A stretch of DNA of 64,000 bases from Eledone cirrhosa. Lineage: Eukaryota. The notes beneath the pieces are model-generated. The model saw only the letters and a list, made by a program, of their open reading frames with translations, searched no databases and was not told the origin of the DNA. Shown one piece after another: positions 13,402 to 52,497 of the stretch (its first letter is position 1; every line of letters begins with the position of its first letter). The position numbers and the translations under genes were made by a program. The stretch spans positions 313,906,001 to 313,970,000 of the forward strand of contig OZ024743.1 of assembly GCA_964016885.1 (NCBI GenBank), in the 5' to 3' direction.

Positions 13402-13748
13402 TAGATAGATAGATAGGTAGATATAAATATAGATATAAATATACATATATACAAATATACATATATATACATACATATATATACACACACATATATATAT
13501 ATATCAAAGTTATCAAAGTTGTATACGCACACACATATATATATATATATGAATGTATATATAGTGTATTTTGCCATACACGGTATGCTTAATTAAAAGC
13601 AGTTCGAAGACCTTATGCTATTTCAGAGCACCAATTCTAATTTTCAATTTATACTTGACCAGCAACCGCTCTGTATAATCAGTTCCTGATTATTACTAGA
13701 ATTCTATAAGAATCAAACATTCATGATTTTCAGCAAACAGGAGTAGTT

Positions 13749-13793
13749 AGCTTTGATAAGCATAAAAAAATGCGAAACAGAGCTCTGTCAGCT
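13749..13793 (+). ncRNA. Type I hammerhead with U3-A8 variant core
   Basis: agct-TTGATAA-gcat-aaaaaa-atgc-GAAA-cagagctctg-TC-agct. Stem I is extended by ttttcagcaaacagg/cctgtttgctgaaaa. Confidence 0.85.
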
Positions 13794-14067
13794 TTAGCTC
13801 CCCTGTTTGCTGAAAATTAAAGTAAGTGAGACTGTCACTACTCTAAATCAATAGCATAAGGTCTTCGAAATGCTTTTAATTAAGCATATAGTGTATTGCA
13901 AAATACACTATATAGACATTCATATATATATCGCTATTTCAGAGCACCAATTCTAATTATCAATTTCTGCTTGACCGGCAACCGCTCTGTGTAAGCAGTT
14001 CCTGATTATTACTAAAATTCTATAAGAATCAAACATTCATGATTTTCAGCAAACAGGAGGAGTAGTT

Positions 14068-14112
14068 AGCTTTGATAAGCATAAAAAAATGCGAAACAGA
14101 GCTCTGTCACCT
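14068..14112 (+). ncRNA. Type I hammerhead with U3-A8 variant core, second copy (one stem I mismatch)
   Basis: agct-TTGATAA-gcat-aaaaaa-atgc-GAAA-cagagctctg-TC-acct. Confidence 0.75.
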
Positions 14113-14271
14113 CTATCTCCCCTGTTTGCTGAAAATTAAAGTAAGTGAGACTGTCACTACTCTAAAACAATAGCAGAAGGTCTTCGAAATGCTTTCAATT
14201 AAGCATACAGTGTATTGCAAAATACACTGTATATACATTCATATATATAAATCGCTATTTCAGAGCACCAA

Positions 14272-14312
<41 letters not shown>

Positions 14313-14533
14313 AATTAAGTTAAGAATGTACATCCACATATGTATACTGAAATACTAGTATGCATATGAATACACACACGTGTACATATGTAGATGTACC
14401 GAGTTTTTCACTGGTCACTTTACTGTGAGTGTCCAGCTATTCTGTATGTAAACACACAGACAAACCGGTTTTTAGAGTCATACTGGTTTTTGAGGAAACA
14501 CCTTTCCTCTATTCTCCAGAAAGCCAGACAAGG

Positions 14534-14578
14534 AATATTGGACTAGTTTCGATGTTGTTACATCTCATCAGCAATATT
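14534..14578 (-). ncRNA. Type I hammerhead ribozyme (466-bp unit)
   Basis: Reverse complement: aatattg-CTGATGA-gatgt-aaca-acatc-GAAA-ctag-TC-caatatt. Confidence 0.95.
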
Positions 14579-14617
14579 TACCCATCTTCCGGCCTTTCTA
14601 GAGAATCGTAAAAGCAC

Positions 14618-14710
14618 ATATCGTTATATGCTTTTTCTATGAAAATTAGTAGTGGGCAGACTAATTTGCATAGAGCGTGAGTACGTACCGGTTCAACGGA
14701 GACGATAAAA
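14618..14710 (-). promoter_or_regulatory. Candidate snRNA-type promoter block in each 466-bp unit (octamer ATGCAAAT plus flanking motifs)
   Basis: On the HHR-sense strand: tttatcgt..actcac..tATGCAAATtag..cata.aaaa.gcaTATAA, octamer about 90 nt upstream of the HHR core. The same ordered motifs occur at 30738-30826 in an otherwise dissimilar element. Confidence 0.5.
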
Positions 14711-14999
14711 ACAAATAACGAAACGAAATTAAATTTTGTTTCGTTTGTAACTCACTTTTGTATGACTGACGCTTAAACAATTAAGTTAAGAATGTACATC
14801 CACATATGTATACTGAAATACTAGTATGCATATGAATACACACACGTGTACATATGTAGATGTACCGAGTTTTTCACTGGTCACTTTACTGTGAGTGTCC
14901 AGCTATTCTGTATGTAAACACACAGACAAACCGGTTTTTAGAGTCATACTGGTTTTTGAGGAAACACCTTTCCTCTATTCTCCAGAAAGCCAGACAAGG

Positions 15000-15044
15000 A
15001 ATATTGGACTAGTTTCGATGTTGTTACATCTCATCAGCAATATT
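15000..15044 (-). ncRNA. Type I hammerhead ribozyme (466-bp unit)
   Basis: Identical to 14534-14578. Confidence 0.95.
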
Positions 15045-15465
15045 TACCCATCTTCCGGCCTTTCTAGAGAATCGTAAAAGCACATATCGTTATATGCTTT
15101 TTCTATGAAAATTAGTAGTGGGCAGACTAATTTGCATAGAGCGTGAGTACGTACCGGTTCAACGGAGACGATAAAAACAAATAACGAAACGAAATTAAAT
15201 TTTGTTTCGTTTGTAACTCACTTTTGTATGACTGACGCTTAAACAATTAAGTTAAGAATGTACATCCACATATGTATACTGAAATACTAGTATGCATATG
15301 AATACACACACGTGTACATATGTAGATGTACCGAGTTTTTCACTGGTCACTTTACTGTGAGTGTCCAGCTATTCTGTATGTAAACACACAGACAAACCGG
15401 TTTTTAGAGTCATACTGGTTTTTGAGGAAACACCTTTCCTCTATTCTCCAGAAAGCCAGACAAGG

Positions 15466-15510
15466 AATATTGGACTAGTTTCGATGTTGTTACATCTCAT
15501 CAGCAATATT
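15466..15510 (-). ncRNA. Type I hammerhead ribozyme (466-bp unit)
   Basis: Identical to 14534-14578. Confidence 0.95.
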
Positions 15511-15931
15511 TACCCATCTTCCGGCCTTTCTAGAGAATCGTAAAAGCACATATCGTTATATGCTTTTTCTATGAAAATTAGTAGTGGGCAGACTAATTTG
15601 CATAGAGCGTGAGTACGTACCGGTTCAACGGAGACGATAAAAACAAATAACGAAACGAAATTAAATTTTGTTTCGTTTGTAACTCACTTTTGTATGACTG
15701 ACGCTTAAACAATTAAGTTAAGAATGTACATCCACATATGTATACTGAAATACTAGTATGCATATGAATACACACACGTGTACATATGTAGATGTACCGA
15801 GTTTTTCACTGGTCACTTTACTGTGAGTGTCCAGCTATTCTGTATGTAAACACACAGACAAACCGGTTTTTAGAGTCATACTGGTTTTTGAGGAAACACC
15901 TTTCCTCTATTCTCCAGAAAGCCAGACAAGG

Positions 15932-15976
15932 AATATTGGACTAGTTTCGATGTTGTTACATCTCATCAGCAATATT
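15932..15976 (-). ncRNA. Type I hammerhead ribozyme (466-bp unit)
   Basis: Identical to 14534-14578. Confidence 0.95.
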
Positions 15977-16725
15977 TACCCATCTTCCGGCCTTTCTAGA
16001 GAATCGTAAAAGCACATATCGTTATATGCTTTTTCTATGAAAATTAGTAGTGGGCAGACTAATTTGCATAGAGCGTTAGTACGTACCGGTTCAACGGAGA
16101 CGATAAAAACAAATAACGAAACGAAATTAAATTTTGTTTCGTTTGTAACTCACTTTTGTATGACTGACGCTTAAACAATTAAGTTAAGAATGTACATCCA
16201 CATATGTATACTGAAATACTAGTATGCATATGAATACAGTATGCATATGAATACACACACGTGTACATATGTAGATGTAACAACATCGAAACTAGTCCAA
16301 TATTCCTTGTCTGGCTTTCTGGAGAATAGAGGAAAGGTGTTTCCTCAAAAACCAGTATGACTCTAAAAACCGGTTTGTCTGTGTGTTTACATACAGAATA
16401 GCTGGACACTCACAGTAAAGTGACCAGTGAAAAACTCGGTACATCTACATATGTACACGTGTGTGTATTCATATGCATACTAGTATTTCAGTATACATAT
16501 GTGGATGTACATTCTTAACTTAATTGTTTAAGCGTCAGTCATACAAAAGTGAGTTACAAACGAAACAAAATTTAATTTCGTTTCGTTATTTGTTTTTATC
16601 GTCTCCGTTGAACCGGTACGTACTCACGCTCTATGCAAATTAGTCTGCCCACTACTAATTTTCATAGAAAAAGCATATAACGATATGTGCTTTTACGATT
16701 CTCTAGAAAGGCCGGAAGATGGGTA

Positions 16726-16770
16726 AATATTGCTGATGAGATGTAACAACATCGAAACTAGTCCAATATT
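16726..16770 (+). ncRNA. Type I hammerhead ribozyme (466-bp unit)
   Basis: aatattg-CTGATGA-gatgt-aaca-acatc-GAAA-ctag-TC-caatatt. Predicted cleavage after C16763. Confidence 0.95.
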
Positions 16771-17191
16771 CCTTGTCTGGCTTTCTAGAGAATAGAGGAA
16801 AGGTGTTTCCTCAAAAACCAGTATGACTCTAAAAACCGGTTTGTCTGTGTGTTTACATACAGAATAGCTGGACACTCACAGTAAAGTGACCAGTGAAAAA
16901 CTCGGTACATCTACATATGTACACGTGTGTGTATTCATATGCATACTAGTATTTCAGTATACATATGTGGATGTACATTCTTAACTTAATTGTTTAAGCG
17001 TCAGTCATACAAAAGTGAGTTACAAACGAAACAAAATTTAATTTCGTTTCGTTATTTGTTTTTATCGTCTCCGTTGAACCGGTACGTACTCACGCTCTAT
17101 GCAAATTAGTCTGCCCACTACTAATTCTCATAGAAAAAGCATATAACGATATGTGCTTTTACGATTCTCTAGAAAGGCCGGAAGATGGGTA

Positions 17192-17236
17192 AATATTGCT
17201 GATGAGATGTAACAACATCGAAACTAGTCCACTATT
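17192..17236 (+). ncRNA. Type I hammerhead ribozyme (466-bp unit, one stem I mismatch)
   Basis: As 16726, but the 3' stem I strand reads cactatt. Confidence 0.9.
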
Positions 17237-17658
17237 CCTTGTCTGGCTTTCTGGAGAATAGAGGAAAGGTGTTTCCTCAAAAACCAGTATGACTCTAAAA
17301 ACCGGTTTGTCTGTGTGTTTACATACAGAATAGCTGGACACTCACAGTAAAGTGACCAGTGAAAAACTCGGTACATCTACATATGTACACGTGTGTGTAT
17401 TCATATGCATACTAGTATTTCAGTATACATATGTGGATGTACATTCTTAACTTAATTGTTTAAGCGTCAGTCATACAAAAGTGAGTTACAAACGAAACAA
17501 AATTTAATTTCGTTTCGTTATTTGTTTTTATCGTCTCCGTTGAACCGGTACGTACTCACGCTCTATGCAAATTAGTCTTGCCCACTACTAATTTTCATAG
17601 AAAAAGCATATAACGATATGTGCTTTTGCGATTCTCTAGAAAGGCCGGAAGATGGGTA

Positions 17659-17703
17659 AATATTGCTGATGAGATGTAACAACATCGAAACTAGTCCAAT
17701 ATT
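17659..17703 (+). ncRNA. Type I hammerhead ribozyme (466-bp unit)
   Basis: Identical to 16726-16770. Confidence 0.95.
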
Positions 17704-18124
17704 CCTTGTCTGGCTTTCTGGAGAATAGAGGAAAGGTGTTTCCTCAAAAACCAGTATGACTCTAAAAACCGGTTTGTCTGTGTGTTTACATACAGAATAG
17801 CTGGACACTCACAGTAAAGTGACCAGTGAAAAACTCGGTACATCTACATATGTACACGTGTGTGTATTCATATGCATACTAGTATTTCAGTATACATATG
17901 TGGATGTACATTCTTAACTTAATTGTTTAAGCGTCAGTCATACAAAAGTGAGTTACAAACGAAACAAAATTTAATTTCGTTTCGTTATTTGTTTTTATCG
18001 TCTCCGTTGAACCGGTACGTACTCACGCTCTATGCAAATTAGTCTGCCCACTACTAATTTTCATAGAAAAAGCATATAACGATATGTGCTTTTACGATTC
18101 TCTAGAAAGGCCGGAAGATGGGTA

Positions 18125-18169
18125 AATATTGCTGATGAGATGTAACAACATCGAAACTAGTCCAATATT
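18125..18169 (+). ncRNA. Type I hammerhead ribozyme (466-bp unit)
   Basis: Identical to 16726-16770. Confidence 0.95.
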
Positions 18170-18590
18170 CCTTGTCTGGCTTTCTAGAGAATAGAGGAAA
18201 GGTGTTTCCTAAAAAACCAGTATGACTCTAAAAACCGGTTTGTCTGTGTGTTTACATACAGAATAGCTGGACACTCACAGTAAAGTGACCAGTGAAAAAC
18301 TCGGTACATCTACATATGTACACGTGTGTGTATTCATATGCATACTAGTATTTCAGTATACATATGTGGATGTACATTCTTAACTTAATTGTTTAAGCGT
18401 CAGTCATACAAAAGTGAGTTACAAACGAAACAAAATTTAATTTCGTTTCGTTATTTGTTTTTATCGTCTCCGTTGAACCGGTACGTACTCACGCTCTATG
18501 CAAATTAGTCTGCCCACTACTAATTTTCATAGAAAAAGCATATAACGATATGTGCTTTTACGATTCTCTAGAAAGGCCGGAAGATGGGTA

Positions 18591-18635
18591 AATATTGCTG
18601 ATGAGATGTAACAACATCGAAACTAGTCCAATATT
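18591..18635 (+). ncRNA. Type I hammerhead ribozyme (466-bp unit)
   Basis: Identical to 16726-16770. Confidence 0.95.
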
Positions 18636-19056
18636 CCTTGTCTGGCTTTCTGGAGAATAGAGGAAAGGTGTTTCCTCAAAAACCAGTATGACTCTAAAAA
18701 CCGGTTTGTCTGTGTGTTTACATACAGAATAGCTGGACACTCACAGTAAAGTGACCAGTGAAAAACTCGGTACATCTACATATGTACACGTGTGTGTATT
18801 CATATGCATACTAGTATTTCAGTATACATATGTGGATGTACATTCTTAACTTAATTGTTTAAGCGTCAGTCATACAAAAGTGAGTTACAAACGAAACAAA
18901 ATTTAATTTCGTTTCGTTATTTGTTTTTATCGTCTCCGTTGAACCGGTACGTACTCACGCTCTATGCAAATTAGTCTGCCCACTACTAATTTTCATAGAA
19001 AAAGCATATAACGATATGTGCTTTTACGATTCTCTAGAAAGGCCGGAAGATGGGTA

Positions 19057-19101
19057 AATATTGCTGATGAGATGTAACAACATCGAAACTAGTCCAATAT
19101 T
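19057..19101 (+). ncRNA. Type I hammerhead ribozyme (466-bp unit)
   Basis: Identical to 16726-16770. Confidence 0.95.
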
Positions 19102-19389
19102 CCTTGTCTGGCTTTCTGGAGAATAGAGGAAAGGTGTTTCCTCAAAAACCAGTATGACTCTAAAAACCGGTTTGTCTGTGCGTTTACATACAGAATAGCT
19201 GGACACTCACAGTAAAGTGACCAGTGAAAAACTCGGTACATCTACATATGTACACGTGTGTGTATTCATATGCATACTAGTATTTCAGTATACATATGTG
19301 GATGTACATTCTTAACTTAATTGTTTAAGCGTCAGTCATACAAAAGTGAGTTACAAACGAAACAAAATTTAATTTCGTTTCGTCATTTG

Positions 19390-19459
<70 letters not shown>

Positions 19460-19769: not shown

Positions 19770-20558
19770 TTGTCTGTGTGTGTCCTTAATTTAAGTGTTT
19801 TACAGAAGTACTTTTCGTTCAGAACAAGAATTCGAACATAGTTTACAACTGTCATAATTTTTGAATATGTGTAATTTAAGCAGAAGAGTACAACATTTGG
19901 AGAGGCAAAGGCGATTCTATAGATTGGGGTTTTTTCACGATTTTCTTTCATTAACAATCAAAGTATAAAAAGAAGCTTAGCAGAAGATATTCAAAATCAG
20001 TAGATTCACCAATGTGTTATCCAACACATCTACATTTTCGTTATAAATAATTCATCGGTGCAAAATGTCTGACTGAAATAAGGTGAGATAATATATTTCT
20101 TTTAAAGCGATAATTAATATATTCTTGCCAAGATATCTCTTGAAACAATTTTGTCTCTTTTATTTCTGAAATCTTATGGCTGTGCTCTAGTCTTTCAATC
20201 ATTTAATCCAATTTGTGTAACATTAGAAAATATTTAATGGCCTATAAAATGTCTAACTTGAGAATTATATTTTAATTGACTCTTATTTTCACAATTATAT
20301 CTTTCGTGCTGCTATTGTACAGATATCAATTAAAGATCAAATATATCGGTTTTCAACCTTATATAATTTGTTTATCGCACCCATGATATTAATAGTATAT
20401 TTGTCAGTATAATTTGCTTTAACACATATAATGTTCACATCTAGTTTGTATTACACATTGTTTGTTATGAGTATTATAGAATTAGCTTTGCTGGATTAAA
20501 TTGTGAGCTACAATATAAATAGCGGGCAAGGTCATGCCTTGTCGTACTCACTGCACAC

Positions 20559-20601
<43 letters not shown>

Positions 20602-20603
<2 letters not shown>

Positions 20604-21488
20604 GGTGGCCACGCCATTAGCTAAGATCTTTCTTTCCCTTATTACGAAGCATTTTCCCCCTACACATAAACATAGTAAAATTTTTAATAGAAATACTATT
20701 AAAATTTCTTACTCTACGACTCCTAACCTTGCACATAACATCACAGCTTCAACTTTCGCTAAACTACCTAGCCGTAGGAACATGTGCAACCCTGTAGTTA
20801 GTACTAACTGTAATTGTAGGAATCGGGTTGATTGCCCCCTATCCGGGAAATGCCTCTCTAGTAACATTGTCTACAAATGTAAGGTTGTAAGACCCACGTC
20901 CCGTAGGGCCTACATAGGGTTAACCGCCAATAGATTCAAGCAGCGTCTTTACATGCATACCCATTCTTTTCGAGAAGGAATATGACGTCATTTTCAGCTT
21001 ATATCTGGAGTCTAAAAGACTACCACACCCAATATAAGTTACACTGGGAGATCCTAGCTAGGGCTAGATCGTATAACGGAAATAAAAGACCATGTGACCT
21101 CTGCGCCGCTGAGGCCCTGGAAATACTCTACGCCACAGACCACATCTTAAACAAAAAATCTGAGGCAATTTCAGCTTGTAAACATAAATTGCACAAAACT
21201 TTCCTGTATTACAGCCCAACGTTATACCCTAACGGATAGCACGATCTATACGTGGATATTTTACGTCTTGATGTGGGAGCTAAGTATATATTTTGTTTAT
21301 ACCATTACTTATTTGCATAGCGAACGTTTCCACGAACCAAAGTATCGTCTTCCTGTCTTCCTCCGGTTGCAACGTTTTTTTGAAATATCCACTTCTGCGT
21401 TTACAGATTGACTTTGTCAGTTTCAGAAGATCCCGTTAAGGGTGAAAGCAGCGATTCTTTGTTAAACTTTAATTTGTTATTTTAATAA

Positions 21489-21490
<2 letters not shown>
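20602..21490 (+). mobile_element. 5'-truncated Penelope-like element: linker, GIY-YIG endonuclease (frameshifted) and pLTR
   Basis: ORFs give KIFNRNTIKISYS..CNCRNRVDCPLSGKCLSSNIVYKC..AYIGLTANRFKQR and ..YIWSLK..W..CDLC..E..C.H. Flanked by (TA)n. Confidence 0.9.
21420..21467 (+). ncRNA. Penelope pLTR hammerhead, mutated core (CAGAAGA)
   Basis: gttt-CAGAAGA-tccc-gttaa-gggt-GAAA-gca-gcgattctt-tgt-TA-aac. Confidence 0.65.
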
Positions 21491-21521: not shown

Positions 21522-21596
<75 letters not shown>

Positions 21597-21865
21597 GAAT
21601 GTATGTATAGTATATTTGGCAATATAGCGTTTGTTTAATTAAAAACATTTTGAAGACGGAAGCAGGGAGTGCGTGGCTCTGATGAACGCCAACCAACGTG
21701 AAACAGACTGTTAGCTTCTCTCCCTTCTTTCGCCGAAAAGAAGTGACATAGTCACTACTTTAAAACCGATAGCGTATGGTCTTCACATTATTTTTAATTA
21801 AACATACGGTATATTGCCAAATATACTATACATACATTCATGTATACATCGCTATTTCAGAGCAA
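21597..21865 (+). mobile_element. Retrozyme-like insert related to 13551-14277 (inverted tail, HHR, direct tail)
   Basis: 21597-21658 is inverted against 21779-21840. It shares the tail gtcactact.taaa..atagc..ggtcttc..ttaattaa..cattca..tcgctatttcagagca with the 13.6-14.3 kb family. Confidence 0.8.
21675..21716 (+). ncRNA. Type I hammerhead, canonical C3-G8 core
   Basis: ggct-CTGATGA-acg-ccaaccaa-cgt-GAAA-cagactg-TT-agct. Stem I can extend with gaagcagggag/ctcccttctt. Confidence 0.8.
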
Positions 21866-28901: not shown

Positions 28902-30214
28902 ATGGAAGCCATTACCACAGGTAACGATGACACGCCCACTAAACAAACTGAAGGAGAGCGGCAACAAGCTCCCTACTGAAAGAATAATGATTATTAGAAA
29001 CATTGAAAAAATGGAGCCTAACCCTAATGAAAAAAATGTGAAAAAAATTGACTCGGAGAAATTGCCAAAATTAATGGATGCCGTTTCGACATTTCATGAT
29101 GCCATGCCCACCAGAAAAGGTGAAAGAGACCTAGTAACTGTAACTACAAGTCTCTCGGATACTGAAAATATAAGTGAACATTTTGAAAAAATGGAGTCTA
29201 ACCCCAACGGGGAAAAAATATGAACGCATACATCAACATAAATAACACAAACACAACAAAAAATGAAAATTGTAACAACAAAAAACAAGAAAACCACATT
29301 TCGACAAATGTAAACAGAGAGGGGCCAAACAAAATGACGTTCGCACAAAGCATAACAAAACTATTGTGTACGAACCTATTGACATTTCGAACATGGCCCA
29401 GCAAATGGAAAATGCATGGAAGTATATAACTTTGGAGGAGAATGGTCTATTTTCTTTAAATTCTCCCCCAGAGCTAAAATAGGAAAATAGCTTAAAAACT
29501 ATTATTTATAGGACAATAACAAACAAAACCCGTAAGCCAGTACAACTCACACAGACAGAGATTGAACTGGCGTTAAAAGATCATCTGAAAAACATTGTAT
29601 TCATTCGGAAGGATAGACTCTACGGTCGTCTATCCATCCGAATGAAAGATAAATTGACGACCGATAAACATTCCCTGACCCCTATTGTGTCCCACTTATT
29701 TACCTTCTTCCCCACTTATTTGGGAAGAAAAACACAAAGATTGACCATACACAGTATCGATCCAGATATTGATTTCTGGGCGGTACTGTGTGGCCTCCTC
29801 AAATTGAAAGAGGATGCAGTAATTTCGGTAGGTAAGTCTTCCAGTAACGTGTTCGGTGGAACTAACCTGCAAGTTCTGGTGCAAATGCAGCCAGAACGAA
29901 TTGCTAGGATCCCCGACCGCATATTGCTGGATGGGGTTGCCTACTTACACATCACAGTGGAGGGTAGACGACCCGCTTGTTACCTCTGTGGTGGCAGAGG
30001 TCATCTGAGAACTGCCTGTTTCCAAGCAAACAAAAAGACACCGATTTTGCCCACACCAACAACTACAACACTAACAACACAACCTCCACCACCACCACAA
30101 AAACAACTAACAGCACAAGTTAAAACACAACTGAAAACAATCCCCCCCCCCCCCTACCCCCACACAGAAAACAAATACAATAAAACCCACACCACAAACA
30201 AGAACCGAAAATGA
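28902..30214 (+). pseudogene. Frameshifted gag-like ORF1 of a non-LTR retrotransposon with a CCHC zinc knuckle; no ORF2 follows
   Basis: IPDRILLDGVAYLHITVEGRRPACYLCGGRGHLRTAC (C-x2-C-x4-H-x4-C), upstream TFAQ motif, downstream P/T/K-rich tail. Confidence 0.75.
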
Positions 30215-30395
30215 ACCCCTCCCCTCGAATACGGAAGACGACCTTTCGTCGACAGACGAGAGGAGGGGGGGGGGGGGCACTTTCATAAAGAAAAAGAAAA
30301 AAAAACACACCACAGGAACACAGATACAAACAAGCCCTTAGTGCATAGAGTGCTTGATTTGGTACCAACGCCAGTATTTCACCGTACTACCTACA

Positions 30396-30452
<57 letters not shown>

Positions 30453-30660
30453 GAAAATAATGAACCGAAATTTCATTTCTTACTCTTAGTACGGCTGGTA
30501 CTTAAATGTAAGTATGTATGTATACGTGCATACATATATGAATACAGACGTACAGTAGTATGTATATATATACCTACATGCACACATATATATATGTACG
30601 TATGGGTTTACCGAACATTTATTATAATGCTCGGTTTGTTTGCTCAACACTGACACAGGA

Positions 30661-30703
30661 ACGATGTACAAGTTTCAAGCTTATTAGCTATCGTCAGCAT
30701 CGT
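30661..30703 (-). ncRNA. Type I minimal hammerhead
   Basis: Reverse complement: acgatg-CTGACGA-tagct-aata-agctt-GAAA-cttg-TA-catcgt. Confidence 0.88.
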
Positions 30704-30852
30704 ATAACTTTCTGTTAGATGGTTGAACGTCTGAAAGTATATACTTTCCTTATGCATATTAACGGCTTAGTAGCCTAATTTGCATATCGAGTGAGTTAGT
30801 CGGCCGGGCGCACCGAAAACGATAAATGGAAAACCATCTGACAGAAAGGTAT

Positions 30853-30895
30853 ACGATGCTGACGATAGCTAATAAGCTTGAAACTAATACATCGT
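30853..30895 (+). ncRNA. Type I minimal hammerhead
   Basis: acgatg-CTGACGA-tagct-aata-agctt-GAAA-ctaa-TA-catcgt. Confidence 0.85.
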
Positions 30896-31169
30896 TCCTG
30901 TGTCAGTGTTGAGCAAAAAGGTGACGATGGTTGCCTGAAAACTGTACGGCTTAATTCGGGCTGTTTGTTTGTTTACAAACAAACCGACCATTATAATAAA
31001 TGTTCGGTAAAGCCATACGTACATATATATATGTGTGTGCATGTATGTATATATATATATACATACTACTGTACATCTGTATACATATATGTATGTACGT
31101 ATACATACATACATACATTTACGTACCAGCCGTACTAAGAGTGAGAAATGAAATTTTGTTTCATTCTTT

Positions 31170-31333
<164 letters not shown>

Positions 31334-31552
31334 TGTAGGTAGTAAGGTGAAATACTGGTGTTGGCACTATATCAAGCACTCTATGCGCAGACAGAGTTTA
31401 TATGATGGAAAAAACGAGGAAGTTTCGTTTACATATGAATAATATAACTTCTATGGGCCAACTTGAGCCAATCCTCTGCGAAACGCGCCTAACATGTCGG
31501 TAAGCAATAGAAATATTTCATATGTAAACGGAATTTCCCCGTTTTTTCTATG

Positions 31553-31655
<103 letters not shown>

Positions 31656-31747
31656 AGGTGAGTTTTATTGTAGCACAATAAAGCATGCAAATATCGGACT
31701 GGAGTATAAATAATATAAGATCAAATGATGGTTAAAAGAGTTCCTAG

Positions 31748-31818
31748 TATTTTATTATGCGCATTTCAAAAACAAGTTTCATCATGGGATGATATTTGCG
31801 TTCTCATCAGATAAAATA
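31748..31818 (-). ncRNA. Type I hammerhead (long stem II, palindromic stem III)
   Basis: Reverse complement: tattttat-CTGATGA-gaac..ttttt-GAAA-tgcgca-TA-ataaaata. Confidence 0.75.
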
Positions 31819-31907
31819 GGGAGACATGATATGTCGATTTTACAACATATGTTGATTTTACACTTCACTGCTCGCAAGTGTTTTTTAATCTTCATATCAT
31901 GTCTCTC

Positions 31908-31978
31908 TATTTTATCTGATGAGAACACAGATATCATCCCATGATGATAATTTTTTTTGAAATGTGCATAATAAAATA
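31908..31978 (+). ncRNA. Type I hammerhead (long stem II)
   Basis: tattttat-CTGATGA-gaacacagatatcatcccatgatgataattttttt..-GAAA-tgtgca-TA-ataaaata. Confidence 0.75.
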
Positions 31979-32264
31979 CTTGGAATTCTTTTAACCATCT
32001 TTTGATCTTATATTATTTATATATATATATATATATAATATACATATATATATATAATATACATATATATACATAATATACATATATATAATATACATAT
32101 ATATATATAATATACATATATATACATAATATACATATACATATATATATATATATATAATATACATATATATATATAATATACCTATATATATAATATA
32201 CATATATATACATAATATACATATATAATATATATATACCTATATATACATAATATACATATAT

Positions 32265-36244: not shown

Positions 36245-37405
36245 ATTTCCGGAAACAGTGCTGACGTATGCGACTTGGTTGGATTATTCATTTTAGATAT
36301 ATTACGTGTTAGATTCCCGGACTTCAACAGGGGAATATACCGCGACGATGCTCTGACCTTATCGAGCCATAAAAGTGGTCACGACCTGAAGCGGTTTAAA
36401 TAAGATTTAACTTCTACTTTTAATGAGTTAGGACTTATGATAAGGGTGGCTAGCAACCTCTCTAGCGTAGATTTCTTAGACATTAATTTAGACCTTCGCA
36501 CGCATACCTCCAGACCCTTCCATAAGCTAAACGAAAAACTTAATTACATACACATGGACTCATGCCACCCTCCTACTGTTTTTAGAAACTTCGTAAATAA
36601 GATCAGTACTAGAATTTCTAAACTCTCCCCTAATAAGGCTATCTTTGACAGAGCGGCCCCTTACTATAACACGGCGTTAGCTAACAATGGCTTCTCGCAA
36701 CCAATTACTTACTCCCCCGCTAACAACAACAGCAATAAGAAAAGAAATCGTAACAATAGACAAACTATCTGGTTTTCTCCTCCCTTATCACTCAACGTTA
36801 AAACTAATGTAGAAAAAAAAGGTTTTAGCCCACTTAGATAGACACTTTCCCATAGGTCACAAATACCGCTCCATCTTTAACAGACACAGAGTAAAACTAG
36901 GGTACTCCTGCGCTAAGAATAGGAAGGCCCACATCACCAACAGTCCTAAGAGCGACACCCCACCAGGACGCTCTTGCGGAAAGCCTGAAGCTTGTCCCCT
37001 TCAACAGCAATGCAACACACCCGCTGTAGTTTATGAAGCTGTGGCCAAATCAACCAGAGGAGGTCAAATTCTATGTGGGTATGGCGGAGGGCCGATTTAA
37101 GGAACGCTTCCTGAACCATCAGTCGACCTTTAGGTACCCAGACAAATGAGCATCCACGAAGCTCGCGAGTCACGTATGGTCCCTCAAAGACTTAGGTATA
37201 GGCTACTCCATTCAATGGAAAGCTATCACTAAGTCCAAGCCATACGCAAGAGGCAATCCGTCTTTTTGACTGTGTATTGAAGAAAGGATAAATATTTTAA
37301 AGAGATTACGCAATAGCGATTGCCTTAATTCAAGGAATGAAATCTTCTCACGTTTTCCGCATGTCTGGAAACACCTCTTGCATAGCTACAAAGCTCCGGA
37401 TTGAA
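36245..37405 (+). mobile_element. 5'-truncated, frameshifted Penelope-like element (RT C-half plus GIY-YIG)
   Basis: SADVCDLVGLFIL..GIYRDDAL at about 36257-36355, then VDFLDINLDL..YIHMDSCHP..IWFSPP, then CPLQQQC..VVY..FYVGMAEGRFKERF. Confidence 0.9.
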
Positions 37406-39240: not shown

Positions 39241-40686
39241 TTAAATCACTGTATGTAATTTTTTACGGATTGCATTGTACAGTGTTTTGGCCAGTACACC
39301 ATGTCTCATAGGTAGATAGTACCGCGAGGGCATATCTGGACAGCTGCTGATGACATGGGTGATATCTTCGATGTTAGCTCTGCAGAGTCTGCGCTTGTTA
39401 TCACATCTAGGTGTTTTGCCTGCATGACTATCTCTTTTGTGAATCAGGTATTTCGTGTTAATTTCCTGTTCTCGGATTGCAAAAGCGTATCCTTCAAAGT
39501 AGGAGCCAATATAGCGGTTGTTGGTCCAATATAGACTAATTTCCTTATCTATATTACACTCACTCTGGAGCTTCTTGGCAACATATGCATGCATCATTTT
39601 TTGCTGATAAGCATGCAGGTTTTCATCCATGGATTCACTGCGATACTGCTGAGCGACTTCCCTGGGTGTGAGCTTTTGATTATCACACAGGGAATATCTC
39701 TCGAGGAGTTCCTTCCCAACTCTCATGATCTTATCTGTTTCATGCAGATAGACTTGCTCGAGAGACGGGCTCCTACGCTTAGATATTCGTAGATGTTGTC
39801 GGAGGGATATGATGCGATATTCAAATGCTGTCTGGACAGATGTCAGGCCTCTGCCTCCCTGCTTACGTTTCAAGTAAAGGCGGTCTATCTCACTGATGAT
39901 GTGGAAGTTTCCGGTGTTGTTTAGTATTTTTCGAGTTCCAACATCAACTGCTCGGATTTCGTCAAACGTTGGTGTTAGGACAGGCACAGGAAACACATTC
40001 TGAGCCACTGTTTTGTTTTGCGCAGAGAGTTCCGATGACCAAATCTTTCTTAATCGGATGGAGTATTCCCTGGTTACGCGTTCCTTATTACAAATATCAT
40101 TATAGGATATGTTCTCATCTATCCTGAGGTATCTGTAGCAGTCCTCATCAGATATCGGTGAAACAGTTACGCCATTGATGACAATGTTGCTAGATTGGGT
40201 TGTTGTTTTTCCCCGCTTTACAGTCATATATGAGCATTTATCTTGGCCAAACTCCATTCCTATATCCTTTGAGAGCGTTGTAACCAGGTCAAGATTTTTG
40301 TTCATCCCATCCATGCTCTTGGCATAGAGTTTCAGATCATCCACAAAGAAATGATGGGTTAGGTTCGTATTTCTGTTCTCCTGTGAGCCAATCATGTAAC
40401 CTTCACATTTCTTGAGCAGAAAGGATAATGGGTTTAATGACAAGATGAATAATATCACAGAGAGACTGTCTCCCTGAAATATGCTCCTGCGATATTTTAT
40501 TTTATCAGTGAAAATAGAGTCCTCCCTCTCTGTCTTTAACCTTAGGATAGTAGCCCAAGAAGAAGACAGCTTCTCTATGGCTCTGATAATAATGTCTGGG
40601 GCTTTAGCAAGTTGGAAGGCCTCTATCATCCAAGAGTGGGGAACATAATCGAAAGCTTTCCTGTAGTCCAGCCAGACTGTAACCAT
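39241..40686 (-). pseudogene. Reverse transcriptase ORF segment of the R4/Dong-like LINE
   Basis: WLDYRKAFDYVPHSW, IFQGDSLS, HHFFVDDLKLY, and degenerate CCHC RRLCRANIEDITHVISSCP..RH. Confidence 0.88.
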
Positions 40687-42474
40687 ATTCCCCCTAGTTG
40701 TCGCACCTCCGACATCGCAGTTTTGTTGATTAGGAGTTGTTCAGCACATCCCCAAACCCCTTTCATTCCAGCTGCTTGTTCATCTGTGATATGTTATTAT
40801 TTTCACAGTGATCTTGGAGGAATAGGTTCAGGCAGGCTGTATACATCTTATACATCAGGTTCTTTCATGCAATGGGTCGGTAGTTTTTTGCCAAGTGGGT
40901 GTCTTTGTTCTTGGGGACCAGTAATGTTTGTGCTAATGTCAACCATTCTGGTATAAGTGTATCTTCCTTAAGAACTTGTTAGTAGAGGTCAGTAAGATAC
41001 CTCCGATAGAATATCAGTTTTTTGTACCTTTAACCGACAATCATGTCTCTTCCTGGTGTTTTCTTATCTTGAAGTTTTCCTATCACAGTCTCAAGGGTAC
41101 CCTCACTTATTTCGTATGTTTTTGTTGTAGTGTAGGTTCTTTCGGATTTCTTTTAGCCACACTGCATCTTGGTTGACATTCTTCTTTTCACCCCATATTT
41201 TTCTTCAAAAGAAATCTATGCTTTTCTGTCATGGGGCCTCAGTGACACTTATTATTTTGTTCTTCATATCTCTATAGACTAATGTTTGGTTTCGTCTGAA
41301 TCTTTTATTAAGCACTTTTATCTCCTCTACCTTATTCAGGTATCGGCCATTTTTGCTAACAGCTCTCAATTCTTGCTTAGGATGATCAGCTTATATTGAA
41401 GAGTTCTACTGTTACCAAACATCGTCTCTATTTTGTTTTTCAACTTTATTGGTGAGGAGTGAAGTTTTTGTGTTTGTTTGCATGTAAGGAGCATTGTCAC
41501 ATATCCTATGGTTTTTCGTAGGTCAGTAATCTTTTTTTCTATTTTAGTTACATATGATGGCATTTTTGGTGGTGTTTTGTTATTGTTAATATCTCTGCTA
41601 TCACCAAGATAATGCTTCACTGTCGTTGCTAAGGCATATAAACAGGCGTTCATTTGCCAACATGTTGGGGTTTTTATCCGTCGTAAATATTCATCCCCTA
41701 TTTCGTCAAAAACACGTAATATTTCATTATTTGTTTTTTTTTATTAAATATTGTCGTTTTAATACGTTCAGCAAGAGAGATATGTATACATGAATTAATT
41801 TCTCTCTGGAAGATTTCGTTGAGGGAAATTTTCAATTGTTTATAATTTTGATTATTATCATTATCGATAGTATTTTCGACAGCAGTATAAGTAGACTCAG
41901 ATAGTACACGTGGTGTCGAATTTCTTCGATTATTATTATTATTTCTTCGATTATTATTATTATCGATAGTGTTTTCCCCATCATTCGAGGTAGACTTAGA
42001 TGGTACATGTAGTGTCAAGTTTCTTACAGGCATAGTTGTTTCAAGGCATTGTTCGACCTTGCTGCTAGGAAGTCTAGTAGCATGGCGACCTGTAGCACGT
42101 GTTGTTGATCACATGTTTGTTGTGGGGGACTTACAATTAATAATATTTATCTTATTTTTACGCTCAACAAACGTCGCTTGTTGGCGTAATTGTTTCACTG
42201 TGAAATAATTTAGCTCTGGGTGCATTTCGTCTTAGTGTAGCTTCATTCAGTTCATATAGCCAATGGAGGGATTGTTTTTTGCCATTTTATAACAATTAAA
42301 TAAATCATCATTAAGTTCGCAACTACAAGAGAAATGCGATTTATAATTTCGATTTCTTCTGTAGCTACAAACGAATAAAGTTTGTTTACCTTTCTCGTTG
42401 TTTGTCTTCGATACTTCCTTAATTTTGTTGATGGTGTTGTGTTCAGCCATGCTGTTTGTAGCAAATCCTTGCAA
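39241..42474 (-). mobile_element. R4/Dong-like (RLE-type) non-LTR retrotransposon, decayed and truncated before the endonuclease
   Basis: Intact 481-aa segment at 39241-40686 with RT motifs. Upstream minus-strand frames (41366-42474) give broken N-terminal pieces. Clade assignment is from motif recall. Confidence 0.8.
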
Positions 42475-43256: not shown

Positions 43257-44194
43257 CTAGCGGCTTCCCGCCTACATTAGTGATCCCCTCTGGTTTCTCA
43301 CCATTCTGCACCAGATATTTTGTTTTAGTCTCATTCATTCTCAGCCCCACACTCATCGACACAGTCTCAACCTCCTGCATCAAATCCTCTGCCTCCTTCA
43401 CTTATTTGTCACCAAAACTATGTCGGCAAATTCAGCATCCGATACCTTTTTCGCCCTAACTCTCCTGCTCTGAGCCGGTGCTACAGTAAAGTCAGAGTCC
43501 TGGTGTTTCTCCAGTGCAAGGCGCATACAATAGTCCACTACGATGATAAAAAGGTAGGGAGCCAATGTATCTCCCTGGAGCACTCCAGCCAGTATCTCAA
43601 ATAACTCTGTCATCCCATTGGTTGAGGGCTTCCTGTATTTGGGAGCAAAGATTGGGAATACGAAGGATGATGTGGTTGAGAGGAAGAGCAAGGCCTGGGC
43701 GGCGTGCTACAGCTTGAGATCGGTGTGGAAGTCAGACCTTCGTAGAGACCTGAAAATCCGCCTCTTCATTGCTGTAGTGGAGTCTGTGCTGCTGTATGGG
43801 TCTGAGACTTGGACACTGACCACGAAACTCACTCAGATGGTGGATGGGTGCTACACGAGAATGCTGAGTATGGCTCTGAACATTAATCAGTATACACTGA
43901 GGATGAAAAACTCAGAGCTGTATGGGAGCATCCCAAAAGTCAGCTCAAAAGTGACACAGAGGAGACTGAGGTTAGCTGGACATGCTCACCGACATCCAGA
44001 GTTGATATTGCACTCAGTGCTCCTTTGGGAGCCCCTACATGGACACACTAGAATAGGAAGACCAAGATTAACGTATGTTGATGCCCTAAGGACAGACACT
44101 GGTCTGTTGGAGACGCAGGACATGGCAGCGATGATGAGGGACAGAGACCGCTGGAGAGAGCTCGTCCATGGATCTCGGGAATTTTACCCGCCTT

Positions 44195-44196
<2 letters not shown>
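43257..44196 (+). mobile_element. RTE-clade LINE 3' fragment with an inverted 5' segment
   Basis: 43257-43620 (-) encodes GVLQGDTLAPYLF..EFAD..GLRMNETKTK..KPLE. 43621-44196 (+) continues VEGFLYLG..VESVLLYGSETWTL..RRLRLAGH..GRPRLTY..DRDRWR. (TA)n on both sides. Confidence 0.9.
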
Positions 44197-49170: not shown

Positions 49171-49747
49171 GTCCCATTCATGAATATTAATATTTATATT
49201 TATATTATTCATTTCATATGAATTGTTAACTCAACTTAATATGACATGACGTAAAGTTTTCATTATCTCCCCTTCTCTCTCTATATTATTTTTCTCTCTT
49301 GAGTGTTTCTATCTGTCTGATGACTTGATATCTCTCTGTTGCTTTCCTCTGTTCTTCTTATTTCTTCCTTTTTTCTTTTTTCTTTTTTCTTTTTTCTTTT
49401 TTCTTTTTTCTTTTTTCTTTTTTCTTTTTTCTTTTTTCTTTTTTCTTTTTTCTTTTTTCTTTTTTCTTTTTTCTTTTTTCTTTTTTCTTTCTTTCCTCCT
49501 GTCTTTATTTATCTCTCTCTTTTTTTCTCCATGCATTTCTCTCTCTCCGATATTTCTCCACGTTTTTTTCTTTTTCTTTTTTCTCTCTCTCCGTCTTTTT
49601 TCTTTCTCTCCGTCTTTTTCTAATTGTCCTTAACACTAAGACTTATTAAAATAATATAAACAATTCACTATCCAGATGGCTTCCAAAAATAATGGTTGCA
49701 TTTTAAAAGGGTACGTCAAGACGTATTTGTAAAACTGTTATATATTG

Positions 49748-49812
49748 TATTTTGTCTGATGAAGGCATACCATAATTTAATTTGGTATCCCTGAAATATG
49801 TATAATGAAATA
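49748..49812 (+). ncRNA. Type I hammerhead in the 5' pLTR
   Basis: tattttgt-CTGATGA-agg-c-atacca..tggtat-c-cct-GAAA-tatgta-TA-atgaaata. Stem I is 8 bp with two G-U pairs. Confidence 0.85.
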
Positions 49813-49992
49813 AATATGGTTTTATAAATATAGTTTCCATTTATTAATATTGTATATCTACTCCAAATACTTGTCGAGTGCTTTATATTAGTTATAAAAA
49901 TATTTACTTGTTGTATCCCAACAATTTTAAATAGAACTTTTGCATATATTCTGCTCCTGTATTGTTGAGCGCTTTACATTATAACTGGAAAA

Positions 49993-52197
49993 ATGGAATT
50001 CTTTAAGATCTCTTCTTCTCTAAAAGACATACCTCTACCTAGGAACAAAGATTTTATGAAACAATTAATAGAAAGATCAGACTCTTTTATAAGAAGAATC
50101 AGGTGGCGTGCTTTCCACTTTGATAAATCTAATCTAAATGAAAATGTTTCTAATCTGTATAAAATTTTCAAATCTAAAAAAAATCCACCCCTCAACAAAC
50201 TACTAATGAAAATGATATCATATCTATCATCCAAGGCATCAAATTAAAAAAAAACTTCAAAGGCCAGGATTACTTAAGAAGTATTAAGGATAATATTGAA
50301 AACTTGGAGAAAACAGAGAAAATTCTAGTGAAGTCGGACAAAACTAATAATCTTTATGGAATACAAAAGGACATTTATAACGACCTTATATTGAAGGAAC
50401 TAAGGAAAACGTACAAGGTAGCAAATAAGGACGAACTTGAAAAACTGAATACAGATGCATCTTGTATAATGCATGAATTAGACATTGAGAATAAAACACA
50501 ACCCTTCATGCCTAGGAAACCTAAGATCACAAAAAGGATCACAAAAGAAACTTTGAAAATGATTTACCAGTCAGATTAATTGCACCATCTAAATCTGACC
50601 TGGGAAAACTTAGCAAATATATTCTAGACAGAGTACAACAAATTAAAAACTTACCTAATTTATCTTACTTAAAATTATGGAAAGGGACTAGTGAGGTTAT
50701 CGATTGGTTTAAAGAAATTAAATATAACTATAATAATAAGTTTATTCAGCTGGATATTGCTAACTACTATTCATCTATCACTCCTAATCTACTGAATAAG
50801 GCACTAAATTACGCATTTAAACATACAGACCTAACTAGCAATGAAATGAACATTATATTATCGGCAAGGAAAACATTGATAGAATTTAATAACCAACTCT
50901 GGTCTAGGGCAGATAGAAATAATAATTTCGACATAACTATGGGATCATCAGACTCAGCTCAGGTAACGGACCTTGTGGGCCTATTTATAATTAATTCGCT
51001 ACATAGAAAAGTACCAGGTGTAACCGGAGGCTTATATCGTGATGACATAGAAAATAATAGCTGTGAACTAAATAGAAAAAGAAAACAAATTATACAATTT
51101 TTTAATTACCTTAATCTAAAAGTAGAAATAGAGAATAACCATAAAATAGTCAATTTTCTTGATGTAACACTAAATCTCAACACATGTCTTCATTATCCAT
51201 TTCACAAACTAAATGAGAACTTGATTTATGTTAATTTAAACTGTAATCACCCCAGATCTGTTAAAAATACTATAGTGAACTCTGTTCCAGAAGGAATTTC
51301 AAGAATTTCATCCAATAAAAATATATTTGATGAACAAGCGCAGTATTACAACGAAGCGTTAGGTAGAGCTGGATATCGAAATAAAATTAAATACATCGAT
51401 AATAATAATAATAAGCAAACTAACCAACATAATAACAATTTTAATTATGGTAACAACTTTAACAACTATAATAGAAAACATTACAATAATTCCAAAAGCC
51501 GAAAAAGAAATGGAACTAGAAATATATTATGGTTTGGTCCCCTTTCTCACTAAATATTAAAACCCCTATTGCTAAACTATTCTTTAAAGCTCTTGACAAA
51601 CGCTTCCCTAGAACACATAAATATTACTCAATTTTTAATAGACATACTATAAAATTAACTTACTCGTCCACCAAAAATTTAGCACAAAATATTAATAGAA
51701 TTAATAATAGAAACTTAAAACCTAACCAAAATACCAATAATAACCCAAGCAATATTCAATTGAATAACTGTAACTGTAGAAATAAATCTAACTGTCCATT
51801 AAATAACAACTGCTTAGCTAAAAATGTAGTGTACAATTGTAATGTTAAAACTAATTTAAATTCATTTAACTATGTCGGTTCTACCTCTACAGAATTTAAA
51901 TTTTGCTTCAATAATCATAAAAATTCTTTCACAGATCCAAACAAAAAATCTTCAACTTCGCTATCTAGCCTACTATGGGACCTTAAACGAGATAATGTTA
52001 AATATTCGATGACTTGGAATATTATTTCAAAAGCTAGTCCTTTTAATTTCTCTTCAGAAAATTGTGATCTTTGTATTGAAGAAATATTCTTTATATTAAA
52101 GTCCAAAAATTCCCTTAATTTAAGGAATAATTTATTCAGTTGCTGCAGACATAGATTGAACTCAACGTTTAAATATAAATATAAATTTAAAATGTAG
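49993..52197 (+). pseudogene. Penelope-like RT-GIY-YIG polyprotein, broken by several frameshifts
   Basis: SFIRRIRWRAFHF, KSDKTNNLY, FIQLDIANYYSSI, TMGSSDSAQVTDLVGL, GLYRDD, VNFLDVTL, CNHP, CNCRNKSNCPLNNNCL..VVY..YVGST, CDLCIEE, CRH. Confidence 0.92.
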
Positions 52198-52497
52198 TAT
52201 AAGTAATTAAGTAATTTAGTTAATATATGAAACCTGTCGATGAGTCATTAGATTCCTTCACCTTTTTCTTTTTAAATTTTCTTCCTAAATATAAACATAG
52301 ATATAATAAACTACTCTAAAATGTTTATACTTCCAATGTCTTAAATAAAATATACGTAAGATAAATTTCTATACTAAATATAAGGATATCTGTAGAATCC
52401 TTGGCTTTTTTAATTTTTTAATTTTTAATTTTTTAATTTTTTAAACTTTTTAAAATTTAAAAATTTTTAAATTATATTGATATAATATTTATTTAAC

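What the first reader, a model, noticed from the sequence alone, without database searches (positions are those of the whole stretch)
30720..30832. Octamer-containing promoter-like block shared by two unrelated hammerhead elements
Seen: on the HHR-sense strand the 466-bp unit reads tttatcgt..cgt..ccgg..actcacgctcTATGCAAATTAG..ctactaa..cata.gaaaaagcatataa, then the HHR. The 30.4-31.2 kb element reads tttatcgt..cggt..ccgg..actcactcgaTATGCAAATTAG.ctactaa..cataaggaaagtatatac, then the HHR. The octamer lies about 80-95 nt upstream of the core in both, while the HHR stems differ completely. Established: ATGCAAAT is the octamer of snRNA distal elements, and newt satellite 2, an HHR repeat, is driven by an snRNA-type octamer/PSE promoter. 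Inference: these elements carry their own snRNA/U6-like promoter inside the unit, so each tandem copy regenerates a promoter for the next, giving a self-transcribing, self-processing RNA parasite. The block could instead be a conserved RNA element recognised by the RT.
Basis: partly seen in the sequence, partly recalled or inferred. Interest (0 to 1): 0.82.

Follow-up and report, generated by a model that had tools for sequence, protein, structure and literature searches.

The report
Ribozyme repeats carry hybrid snRNA promoter
Tens of thousands of small self-cutting-RNA repeats in this animal genome contain, in each unit, the same 12-letter signal that lies in front of the host's U6-type RNA genes, followed by a TATA-like box, so they likely switch on their own transcription (untested), as was reported for one newt repeat.

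Summary
The block is real, but the two elements are not unrelated. Families A (30.4-31.2 kb) and B (466-bp unit) are homologous over their whole length (about 62% identity), and only the 12-mer TATGCAAATTAG stands above that background. This 12-mer, with its T/G variant, sits at -77 to -80 before the host's U6, U6atac, MRP and tRNA-Sec genes. It is absent before the U1, U2, U3, U4, U5, U11, U12, 7SK, RNase P and SRP loci examined. It recurs, with a TATA-like box and a hammerhead, in family C, whose body is unrelated, and in other families. About 24,400 A/B units match genome-wide (control 0). In A-D the TATA is about 5 nt closer than in host U6-type genes, and a YCA core lies 26-27 nt before it, the geometry of host Pol II snRNA genes. 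Best reading: an internal hybrid snRNA-type promoter, probably read by Pol II, in Penelope-mobilised retrozymes. The block's first letters are also a fixed insertion end. Transcription is untested: no RNA run was listed and 5' ends do not pile up at the predicted start. One hammerhead family lacks the 12-mer. The scan noted this earlier elsewhere in this genome.

The parts
30775..30786 (-). Extended octamer 12-mer (TATGCAAATTAG), offset 0-11; same element as at -77 to -80 of host U6, U6atac, MRP and tRNA-Sec
30766..30769 (-). Position of the YCAG core (offset 17-20), 26 nt before TATA as in host Pol II snRNA genes; mutated C>A in this copy, while 76 of 76 other family-A copies scored have TCAG or CCAG
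30751..30762 (-). Inverted partner of the 12-mer (10 of 12 Watson-Crick pairs): hairpin or dyad
30737..30744 (-). TATA-like box (GTATATAC), T at offset 43
30710..30716 (-). Predicted transcription start, 30 nt after the TATA T by analogy with host genes; inferred, not shown
   Evidence: no pile-up of 5' ends here
30822..30826 (-). TTTAT: distal fixed 3' insertion end of the family (offset -35/-36), likely a reverse-transcription start
30787..30821 (-). 35 nt between the distal 3' end and the 12-mer; shared by A and B only at background identity; absent from families C and E
30660..30704 (-). Type I hammerhead, minus-strand copy; loop III palindrome broken by one substitution
30853..30897 (+). 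Type I hammerhead, plus-strand inverted copy; stem III pair broken by one substitution
30452..30833 (-). Family-A copy, 5'-truncated at offset -47, 3' end next to (TA)n
30832..31173 (+). Inverted family-A copy, 5'-truncated at offset +62 (no promoter block)
16273..19396 (+). Family-B 466-bp tandem array, 12-mer and hammerhead in each full unit, ends at GTTTTTA before (TA)n
14308..16272 (-). Inverted family-B array, back to back with the plus-strand array

Best explanation
The block is likely an internal snRNA-type promoter carried in every unit of an abundant hammerhead retrozyme: it contains the 12-mer found before the host's U6-type genes, then a YCA core and a TATA-like box spaced as in the host's Pol II snRNA genes. 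Inferred cycle: (1) Transcription would start about 16-28 nt before the hammerhead core and, most likely by Pol II, run through the T-runs into the next unit. (2) Hammerheads with a minimal palindromic stem III would cut as dimers, giving unit-length RNAs or circles that contain the promoter sequence internally. (3) A Penelope-type RT/endonuclease would prime at (TA)n and start at one of two fixed sites, the distal one at the 5' edge of the block, then copy round the unit. That gives tandem arrays with fixed 3' ends and variable or inverted 5' ends, in which each full unit restores a promoter. Shown: motifs, spacing, copy number, homology and end structure. Inferred: promoter activity, polymerase, cleavage, circles and the Penelope partner.
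For: Host match: the 12-mer lies at -77 to -80 in 12 of 20 U6 loci (two single loci and 10 array copies; 6 others have a SINE inserted upstream, 2 have unrelated flanks). It is also there in MRP (1 of 1), 1 of 5 U6atac loci and 2 of 2 best tRNA-Sec loci, each with TATA at -30/-31. It is absent in 400 nt upstream of 13 of 13 U1/U2/U5 loci tabulated, 14 of 14 U3/U4/U11/U12 loci, 6 of 6 SRP loci, 7SK and RNase P. Host and elements share the T/G variant at position 9. Constraint: 12/12 identity between A and B against 62% background. The motif recurs with TATA and a hammerhead about 100-110 nt downstream in family C (body unrelated: 61 and 20 of 300 shuffles score as well) and E, and with degenerate cores in D and F. 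Genome counts: 24,449 vs 0 control and 20,003 vs 18. A host-only profile scores A1, A2 and B at 25-26 bits, 0 of 40 shuffles. Pol II geometry: YCA lies 25-28 nt before TATA in 10 of 10 host Pol II rows, 0 of 7 U6-type rows, 8 of 9 element rows and 31 of 360 background TATAs. Read-through: copies extend past T5-T7 runs and arrays keep the block. Penelope marks: 44 of 101 family-A 3' ends at -35/-36 and 36 near -102; 8 and 5 of 26 in B. A Penelope-like family in the window has the same two-site ends, 11 and 9 of 20.
Against: No RNA data. Only 1 of 64 family-A 5' ends and 0 of 6 family-B ends fall at the predicted start, though loci were mostly chosen for holding the block. The 12-mer-to-TATA offset is 43-44 in A-D against 47-49 in the host, and no host gene examined has this combination. 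A Pol II PSE+TATA profile alone is not significant in most units (A1 4/40, A2 1/40, B 11/40, C 14/40 shuffles as good). The YCA test was post hoc, with TATA registers chosen by me, and the families are not all independent. C, D, E and F were found by patterns containing the 12-mer, so they show recurrence, not frequency. Family G, an abundant hammerhead repeat, lacks the 12-mer (0 of 15 hammerhead upstream regions in 14 loci). In A, B and C the 12-mer is one arm of a hairpin with one compensatory change, so RNA structure also constrains it. B has CATATAA rather than GTATATA. No autonomous partner was identified.
Confidence: 0.6

Rival explanations
1. The block is a U6-type (type 3) Pol III promoter. 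Most transcripts stop at the T-run just before the next block, and rare read-through supplies the templates that are copied.
For: The 12-mer is found only before Pol III genes in the host. All T>=4 runs in A1, A2 and B lie in or next to the block, none between offsets 73 and 388, so a unit looks like promoter-RNA-terminator. Family E has exactly the host offset of 48. Schistosome hammerhead repeats use Pol III (PMC6765202, passages).
Against: The offset is 4-6 nt short in A-D. Insertions routinely include sequence beyond T6-T7 runs. Family E has T5-T8 shortly after its hammerhead in several copies. There is no excess of promoter-less monomers starting at the predicted start, in a biased sample. 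U-rich tracts also mark the 3' ends of the window's Penelope-like family.
Confidence: 0.22
2. The block is conserved as an RNA element (a hairpin next to the reverse-transcription start) recognised by the Penelope protein, and the elements are transcribed passively by read-through from host or Penelope promoters.
For: The distal 3' end lies at the first letters of the block. The 12-mer pairs with a downstream arm, 10-11 of 12 Watson-Crick pairs in A, B and C, with T>G matched by A>C in C. The B block folds better than 200 of 200 shuffles (z -4.2). A Penelope RT starts internally at two adjacent sites and needs RNA beyond them (PMC11167929, parts 1-2 of 4). Family G spreads without the 12-mer.
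Against: It does not explain letter-for-letter identity with a host Pol III promoter element, including its T/G variant, or the TATA at fixed spacing. The 5' arm is invariant while the 3' arm varies. The hairpin is weak in D, E and F (6-8 pairs), which keep the 12-mer. The window's A block folds only modestly (10 of 200 shuffles as good).
Confidence: 0.13
3. The block is an inert relic of a host promoter or Penelope pLTR, shared by descent without current function.
For: A and B are homologous throughout. This window's copy is decayed in the YCAG core and in both hammerheads. One Penelope-like pLTR has a reversed octamer in 20 of 20 near-identical copies. Vertebrate retrozymes are related to pLTRs (10.64898/2026.07.22.740005, passages).
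Against: 12/12 conservation against 62% background, and recurrence in family C with an unrelated body. The full 12-mer is absent from 20 of 20 and 30 of 30 copies of two Penelope-like 3' regions, which do not align to A, B or C better than shuffles.
Confidence: 0.05

Closest known systems
Newt satellite 2 (Coats, Zhang and Epstein 1994; paper not held; seen as cited in PMC2220036 and, for Cremisi 1992, in PMC6765202)
   Same: Tandem hammerhead repeat with an internal snRNA-type promoter, reported as Pol II-driven.
   Different: Tested experimentally there, untested here. Here the upstream 12-mer is proximal and is the host's U6-class element. That satellite 2 uses an octamer plus PSE is recalled, not seen in any call.
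Metazoan non-LTR retrozymes (Cervera and de la Pena 2020, PMC7229834; Li, Clavereau and Pollet 2026, 10.64898/2026.07.22.740005)
   Same: Non-coding tandem units with a type I hammerhead each, low GC, proposed or inferred link to Penelope-like elements.
   Different: Units of 436-494 bp are longer than the 170-400 nt RNAs reported. Neither text describes an internal promoter: 'promoter' occurs only as T7 in the first and 0 times in the second, and neither mentions octopus or cephalopods (supplements not seen).
Schistosoma SM-alpha hammerhead SINE-like repeats (PMC6765202 passages)
   Same: An internal promoter placed so that tandem units drive the next unit's hammerhead RNA.
   Different: Pol III promoter there (tRNA-type, recalled); here an upstream-type snRNA promoter.
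Penelope-like element pLTRs (PMC11167929, PMC8557442, PMC4209133)
   Same: Hammerhead in the terminal repeat, tandem and inverted insertions, (TA)n targets, two RT start sites, promoter in the upstream repeat.
   Different: No ORF here. The two 3' ends are about 67-69 nt apart rather than the 30-40 nt tail. No sequence match to the two Penelope-like 3' regions tested.

Membership tests
Metazoan non-LTR retrozyme | Type I hammerhead in each tandem unit | tested here: met
   Core, stems I/II and palindromic stem III in A and B. Rfam gathering search found no hammerhead in the window, and this window's A copies each carry one substitution in stem/loop III.
Metazoan non-LTR retrozyme | Short non-coding tandem units dispersed at high copy number | tested here: met
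   436-494 bp units; 24,449 pattern hits vs 0 control; no family-A/B ORF of note.
Metazoan non-LTR retrozyme | Self-cleavage and circular RNA in vivo | not testable with these tools
   No RNA holder listed.
Host U6-class (type 3 Pol III) promoter | 12-mer upstream element | tested here: met
   Identical to that of host U6 L032 and tRNA-Sec.
Host U6-class (type 3 Pol III) promoter | TATA at offset 47-49 from the 12-mer | tested here: not met
   43-44 in A, B, C, D2; met only in family E (48).
Host U6-class (type 3 Pol III) promoter | T-run terminator ending the transcript | tested here: inconclusive
   T4-T7 runs flank the block, but copies extend past them.
Host Pol II snRNA promoter | YCAG(T) core 25-28 nt before a TATA-like box | tested here: inconclusive
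   YCA at the right distance in 8 of 9 element rows vs 31 of 360 background, but a profile of core plus TATA is not significant on its own, and the host T after YCAG is usually missing.
Host Pol II snRNA promoter | No 12-mer upstream; 3' box downstream | tested here: not met
   The elements carry the 12-mer. A 3'-box-like match is absent in A1 and A2 and weak in B; the pattern found only 3 of 9 host genes.
Functional promoter of either class | Transcription start and factor dependence | not testable with these tools
   Needs RNA or assay data. The proxy test on 5' ends was negative in a biased sample.
Penelope-mobilised element | Fixed 3' ends at two sites, (TA)n target, inverted 5'-truncated partner | tested here: met
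   same two-site pattern in a Penelope-like family of the window.
Penelope-mobilised element | Autonomous partner with a shared 3' region | tested here: not met
   Only two of many Penelope-like families were tested; no match to A, B or C.

The most novel reading that the evidence does not exclude
Several hammerhead retrozyme lineages with unrelated bodies have each acquired a chimeric promoter that no examined host gene has. The activator element of the host's Pol III (U6-class) genes is fused to a Pol II-spaced PSE core and TATA box, so the repeat is strongly transcribed yet reads through T-runs and copies its own promoter. The same DNA doubles as an RNA hairpin beside the Penelope reverse-transcription start.
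Probability: 0.3. Interest if true: 0.75.

Novelty: new variant of a known kind. Interest (0 to 1): 0.55.

Why it matters
How animal retrozymes become highly expressed is unexplained in the papers read; the only snRNA-type precedent found is newt satellite 2. Here the element's motifs can be set against the host's own small-RNA promoters, which gives exact bases to mutate and a clear Pol II versus Pol III prediction. More than 24,000 potential small-RNA promoters in one genome could titrate transcription factors or drive nearby transcription. The comparison also defines candidate U6-class and Pol II snRNA promoter elements for this animal, useful for expressing guide RNAs. The element class and the idea of an internal promoter are known, so the finding extends rather than overturns.

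Tried and rejected
- Rfam gathering search: no hammerhead or snRNA match in the window.
- Sequencing runs: no RNA holder listed; this is no evidence on expression. Contigs of four runs of unknown kind laid on the 466-bp unit were used only for the (AT)n loose ends. The single unit-length contigs in X5 and X6 cannot be read as circles. The same check for family A was not obtained.
- 5'-end pile-up at the predicted start or the cleavage site: not seen.
- A generic hammerhead pattern over the genome did not beat its control (5,445 vs 5,425); it served only as a lead to family G.
- T-run depletion as proof of Pol III: suggestive only, A and B are not independent, and no formal test was run.
- A host gene with the 12-mer at the short spacing: none among U1, U2, U3, U4, U5, U6, U6atac, U11, U12, 7SK, RNase P, MRP, tRNA-Sec and SRP; vault, Y, U7 and U4atac were not examined.
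- Derivation from the window's Penelope-like pLTRs: no match for A, B or C; G scored just above 200 shuffles against one AT-rich region. Pfam found no RT or GIY-YIG domain in those ORFs, so their Penelope label rests on recalled motifs and their end structure.
- A Pol II-type promoter in family G: YCAG 26 nt before TATAA, but the profile is not significant (8/40, 37/40, 1/40).
- Coats 1994 could not be read.
- Literature searches listed no paper on cephalopod retrozyme or snRNA promoters; most subscription papers and all supplements were not seen.

Full report
Observation. The block lies at 30725-30831 on the minus strand, between the inverted arms of a hammerhead element (arms 30639-30724 and 30832-30917). 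The octamer is at 30778-30785, and each full unit of the two back-to-back 466-bp arrays (14308-16272 minus, 16273-19396 plus) has one. Both elements have a type I hammerhead core with a minimal palindromic stem III, although Rfam's gathering search did not detect them. I call them families A and B and count offsets from the first T of TATGCAAATTAG.

The two families are related. Outside the block, natural A and B units align with score 164, against a mean of 45 and maximum of 67 in 300 shuffles. In a global alignment, identity is 26/40 upstream of the 12-mer, 12/12 in it, 19/30 after it, 31/47 in the hammerhead and 62% in the body. Only the 12-mer is exceptional. The shared 'ctactaa' is an accident of two substitutions in this copy: 76 of 76 family-A copies scored have TCAG or CCAG at offset 17 (copies not deduplicated). 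Both hammerheads of this copy also carry a substitution in stem or loop III, so this insertion is probably decayed. The genome is 3.0 Gb. The pattern octamer-to-hammerhead has 24,449 matches against 0 for the reversed control, and 12-mer-to-TATA has 20,003 against 18. That the host is a cephalopod is my recollection from its repeats and the wording of earlier scan notes; I did not test it.

Comparison with host small-RNA genes. I fetched subsets of the Rfam matches for 14 RNA families. The 12-mer TATG(C/G)(A/T)AAT(T/G)AG lies at -77 to -80, with TATA at -30/-31, in 12 of 20 U6 loci (6 more have a SINE inserted upstream, 2 have unrelated flanks). It is also in MRP, in 1 of 5 U6atac loci and in both best tRNA-Sec loci. 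It is missing in 400 nt upstream of 13 U1/U2/U5 loci, 14 U3/U4/U11/U12 loci, 6 SRP loci, 7SK and RNase P. The Pol II genes instead have a YCAG(T)-like core near -57: 18 of 19 sequences gave a gap of 25-28 nt to a TATA-like box, within search windows I set. 7SK and RNase P have the core 32-35 nt before TATA. A weight matrix built from host genes alone scores A1, A2 and B at 25-26 bits, above all 40 shuffles each.

Further families. Patterns with the 12-mer found family C (TGAG variant, hammerhead at about +100, 6 of 6 loci), whose body is unrelated to A or B (61 and 20 of 300 shuffles as good). They also found family E (hammerhead at +106 to +110 where intact) and D and F with degenerate cores. 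These show recurrence, not frequency, because the pattern selected them. Family G, another abundant hammerhead repeat represented in the window, has no 12-mer or octamer in 15 of 15 hammerhead upstream regions from 14 loci.

Which polymerase. The TATA T lies at offset 47-49 in seven host U6-class promoters, but at 43-44 in A, B, C and D2, 46 or 50 in F and 48 in E. In insects the spacing between the upstream element and TATA is tightly conserved (PMC1761439, passages), so the block is not a plain U6 copy. Aligning on TATA, YCA lies 25-28 nt upstream in 10 of 10 host Pol II rows, 0 of 7 U6-class rows, 8 of 9 element rows (the miss is this window's mutated copy) and 31 of 360 background TATAs. 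This suggests a hybrid: the U6-class 12-mer in front of a Pol II-spaced core and TATA. The caveats are real. The test was post hoc, I chose the TATA registers, A, B and D are related, and a Pol II profile alone is not significant in most units. For Pol III, all T>=4 runs of A1, A2 and B lie in or beside the block. Against it, insertions extend past T5-T7 runs and arrays keep the block, which needs read-through, and E has a T-run just after its hammerhead. I put Pol II ahead of Pol III by roughly 2 to 1.

Ends and mobilisation. In 79 loci plus the window (some overlapping, not deduplicated), 44 of 101 family-A 3' ends fall at -35/-36 and 36 near -102; the calls at -92 are the same junction extended into TA repeats. 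In B, 8 of 26 fall at -32/-33 and 5 at -101, the rest being mostly locus edges or inversion junctions. Public contigs show (AT)n loose ends at 16599 and 17065, the distal site. 5' ends are scattered: 1 of 64 in A and 0 of 6 in B fall at the predicted start, in a sample biased towards copies with the block. A Penelope-like family in the window has the same two-site 3' ends next to (TA)n, 11 and 9 of 20 copies. A purified Penelope protein starts reverse transcription at two internal sites (PMC11167929, parts 1-2 of 4). In A, B and C the 12-mer also pairs with a downstream arm (10-11 of 12 pairs, one compensatory change in C), against 6-8 in six of seven host promoters and in D, E and F. I found no partner element: two Penelope-like 3' regions lack the 12-mer (0 of 20, 0 of 30) and do not align to A, B or C.

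What is known. Non-LTR retrozymes are described (PMC7229834: abstract, passages and discussion) and linked to Penelope pLTRs (10.64898/2026.07.22.740005, passages). Neither main text describes an internal promoter or mentions cephalopods; supplements were not seen. Newt satellite 2 is cited as having an snRNA promoter read by Pol II, and the schistosome repeat a Pol III promoter (PMC2220036 and PMC6765202, passages); the primary newt paper was not held. PMC8557442 and PMC4209133 (passages) give the Penelope insertion structure and dimeric hammerheads; PMC10886601 (passages) describes other small-RNA-promoter elements. Eight searches listed nothing on this system. Earlier notes of this scan report the same families and a U6- or snRNA-like promoter elsewhere in this genome; they are not independent evidence.

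Verdict. A real and constrained promoter-like element in a known class of mobile repeat, with a newt precedent: a new variant of a known kind. The hybrid geometry is the most interesting point and the least proven. No RNA run was listed, so activity is untested. Interest 0.55.

Noticed in passing
L031, L032, L034, L066, L068, L168, L169 versus L167, L067, L103, L053, L118: The host seems to have two classes of upstream Pol III promoter: a 12-mer class (U6, U6atac, MRP, tRNA-Sec) and a TCAGT class (7SK, RNase P) that shares its core with Pol II snRNA genes at about 6 nt longer spacing. Pol II snRNA genes here also have a TATA-like box at -30.
   Followed up: partly
window 13617-14278 and 21590-21860; L223-L236: Family G, a roughly 315-bp hammerhead repeat, and a related 319-bp dimer lack the 12-mer but have TCAG 26 nt before TATAA, again as one arm of a hairpin; a possible Pol II-type snRNA promoter, not significant by profile.
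   Followed up: partly
window 20500-21490; L243-L262: 3' part of a young Penelope-like family (3,796 candidates) with a reversed octamer in its terminal repeat, a hammerhead-like core reading CAGAAGA, and two 3' end sites about 90 nt apart.
   Followed up: partly
window 49640-52200 and 53900-54230: Nearly full Penelope-like element broken by frameshifts, with hammerhead-like motifs at 49756 and 54038.
   Followed up: partly
L037, L038, L040-L043: Six copies in the tandem U6 array on contig C19 have a SINE inserted just upstream of the TATA box, displacing the 12-mer; a natural promoter mutant.
   Followed up: no
window 30343-30398 and 31331-31386: The inverted symmetry continues beyond the (TA)n tracts flanking the family-A element, for about 55 nt of other sequence.
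   Followed up: no
window 31705-32021: Another inverted repeat (143-nt arms) with hammerhead-like CTGATGAG motifs in both arms and an octamer at 31685.
   Followed up: no
window 29483-30214: 243-aa frame with a weak zinc knuckle (Pfam E 0.015), resembling a LINE ORF1 fragment.
   Followed up: partly
window 39241-40740 (-), 43558-44196 (-), 36404-36841 (+): Further reverse-transcriptase-like fragments, judged by eye from the translations.
   Followed up: no
window 61324-61395 (-) and 5825-6223: tRNA-like match just over the Rfam cut-off and a tandem pair of SINE-like units.
   Followed up: no
L183, L186, L192, L197, L174: Family E has host-like U6 spacing and a T5-T8 run shortly after its hammerhead, as if a complete short Pol III gene; copies are old and diverged.
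   Followed up: partly
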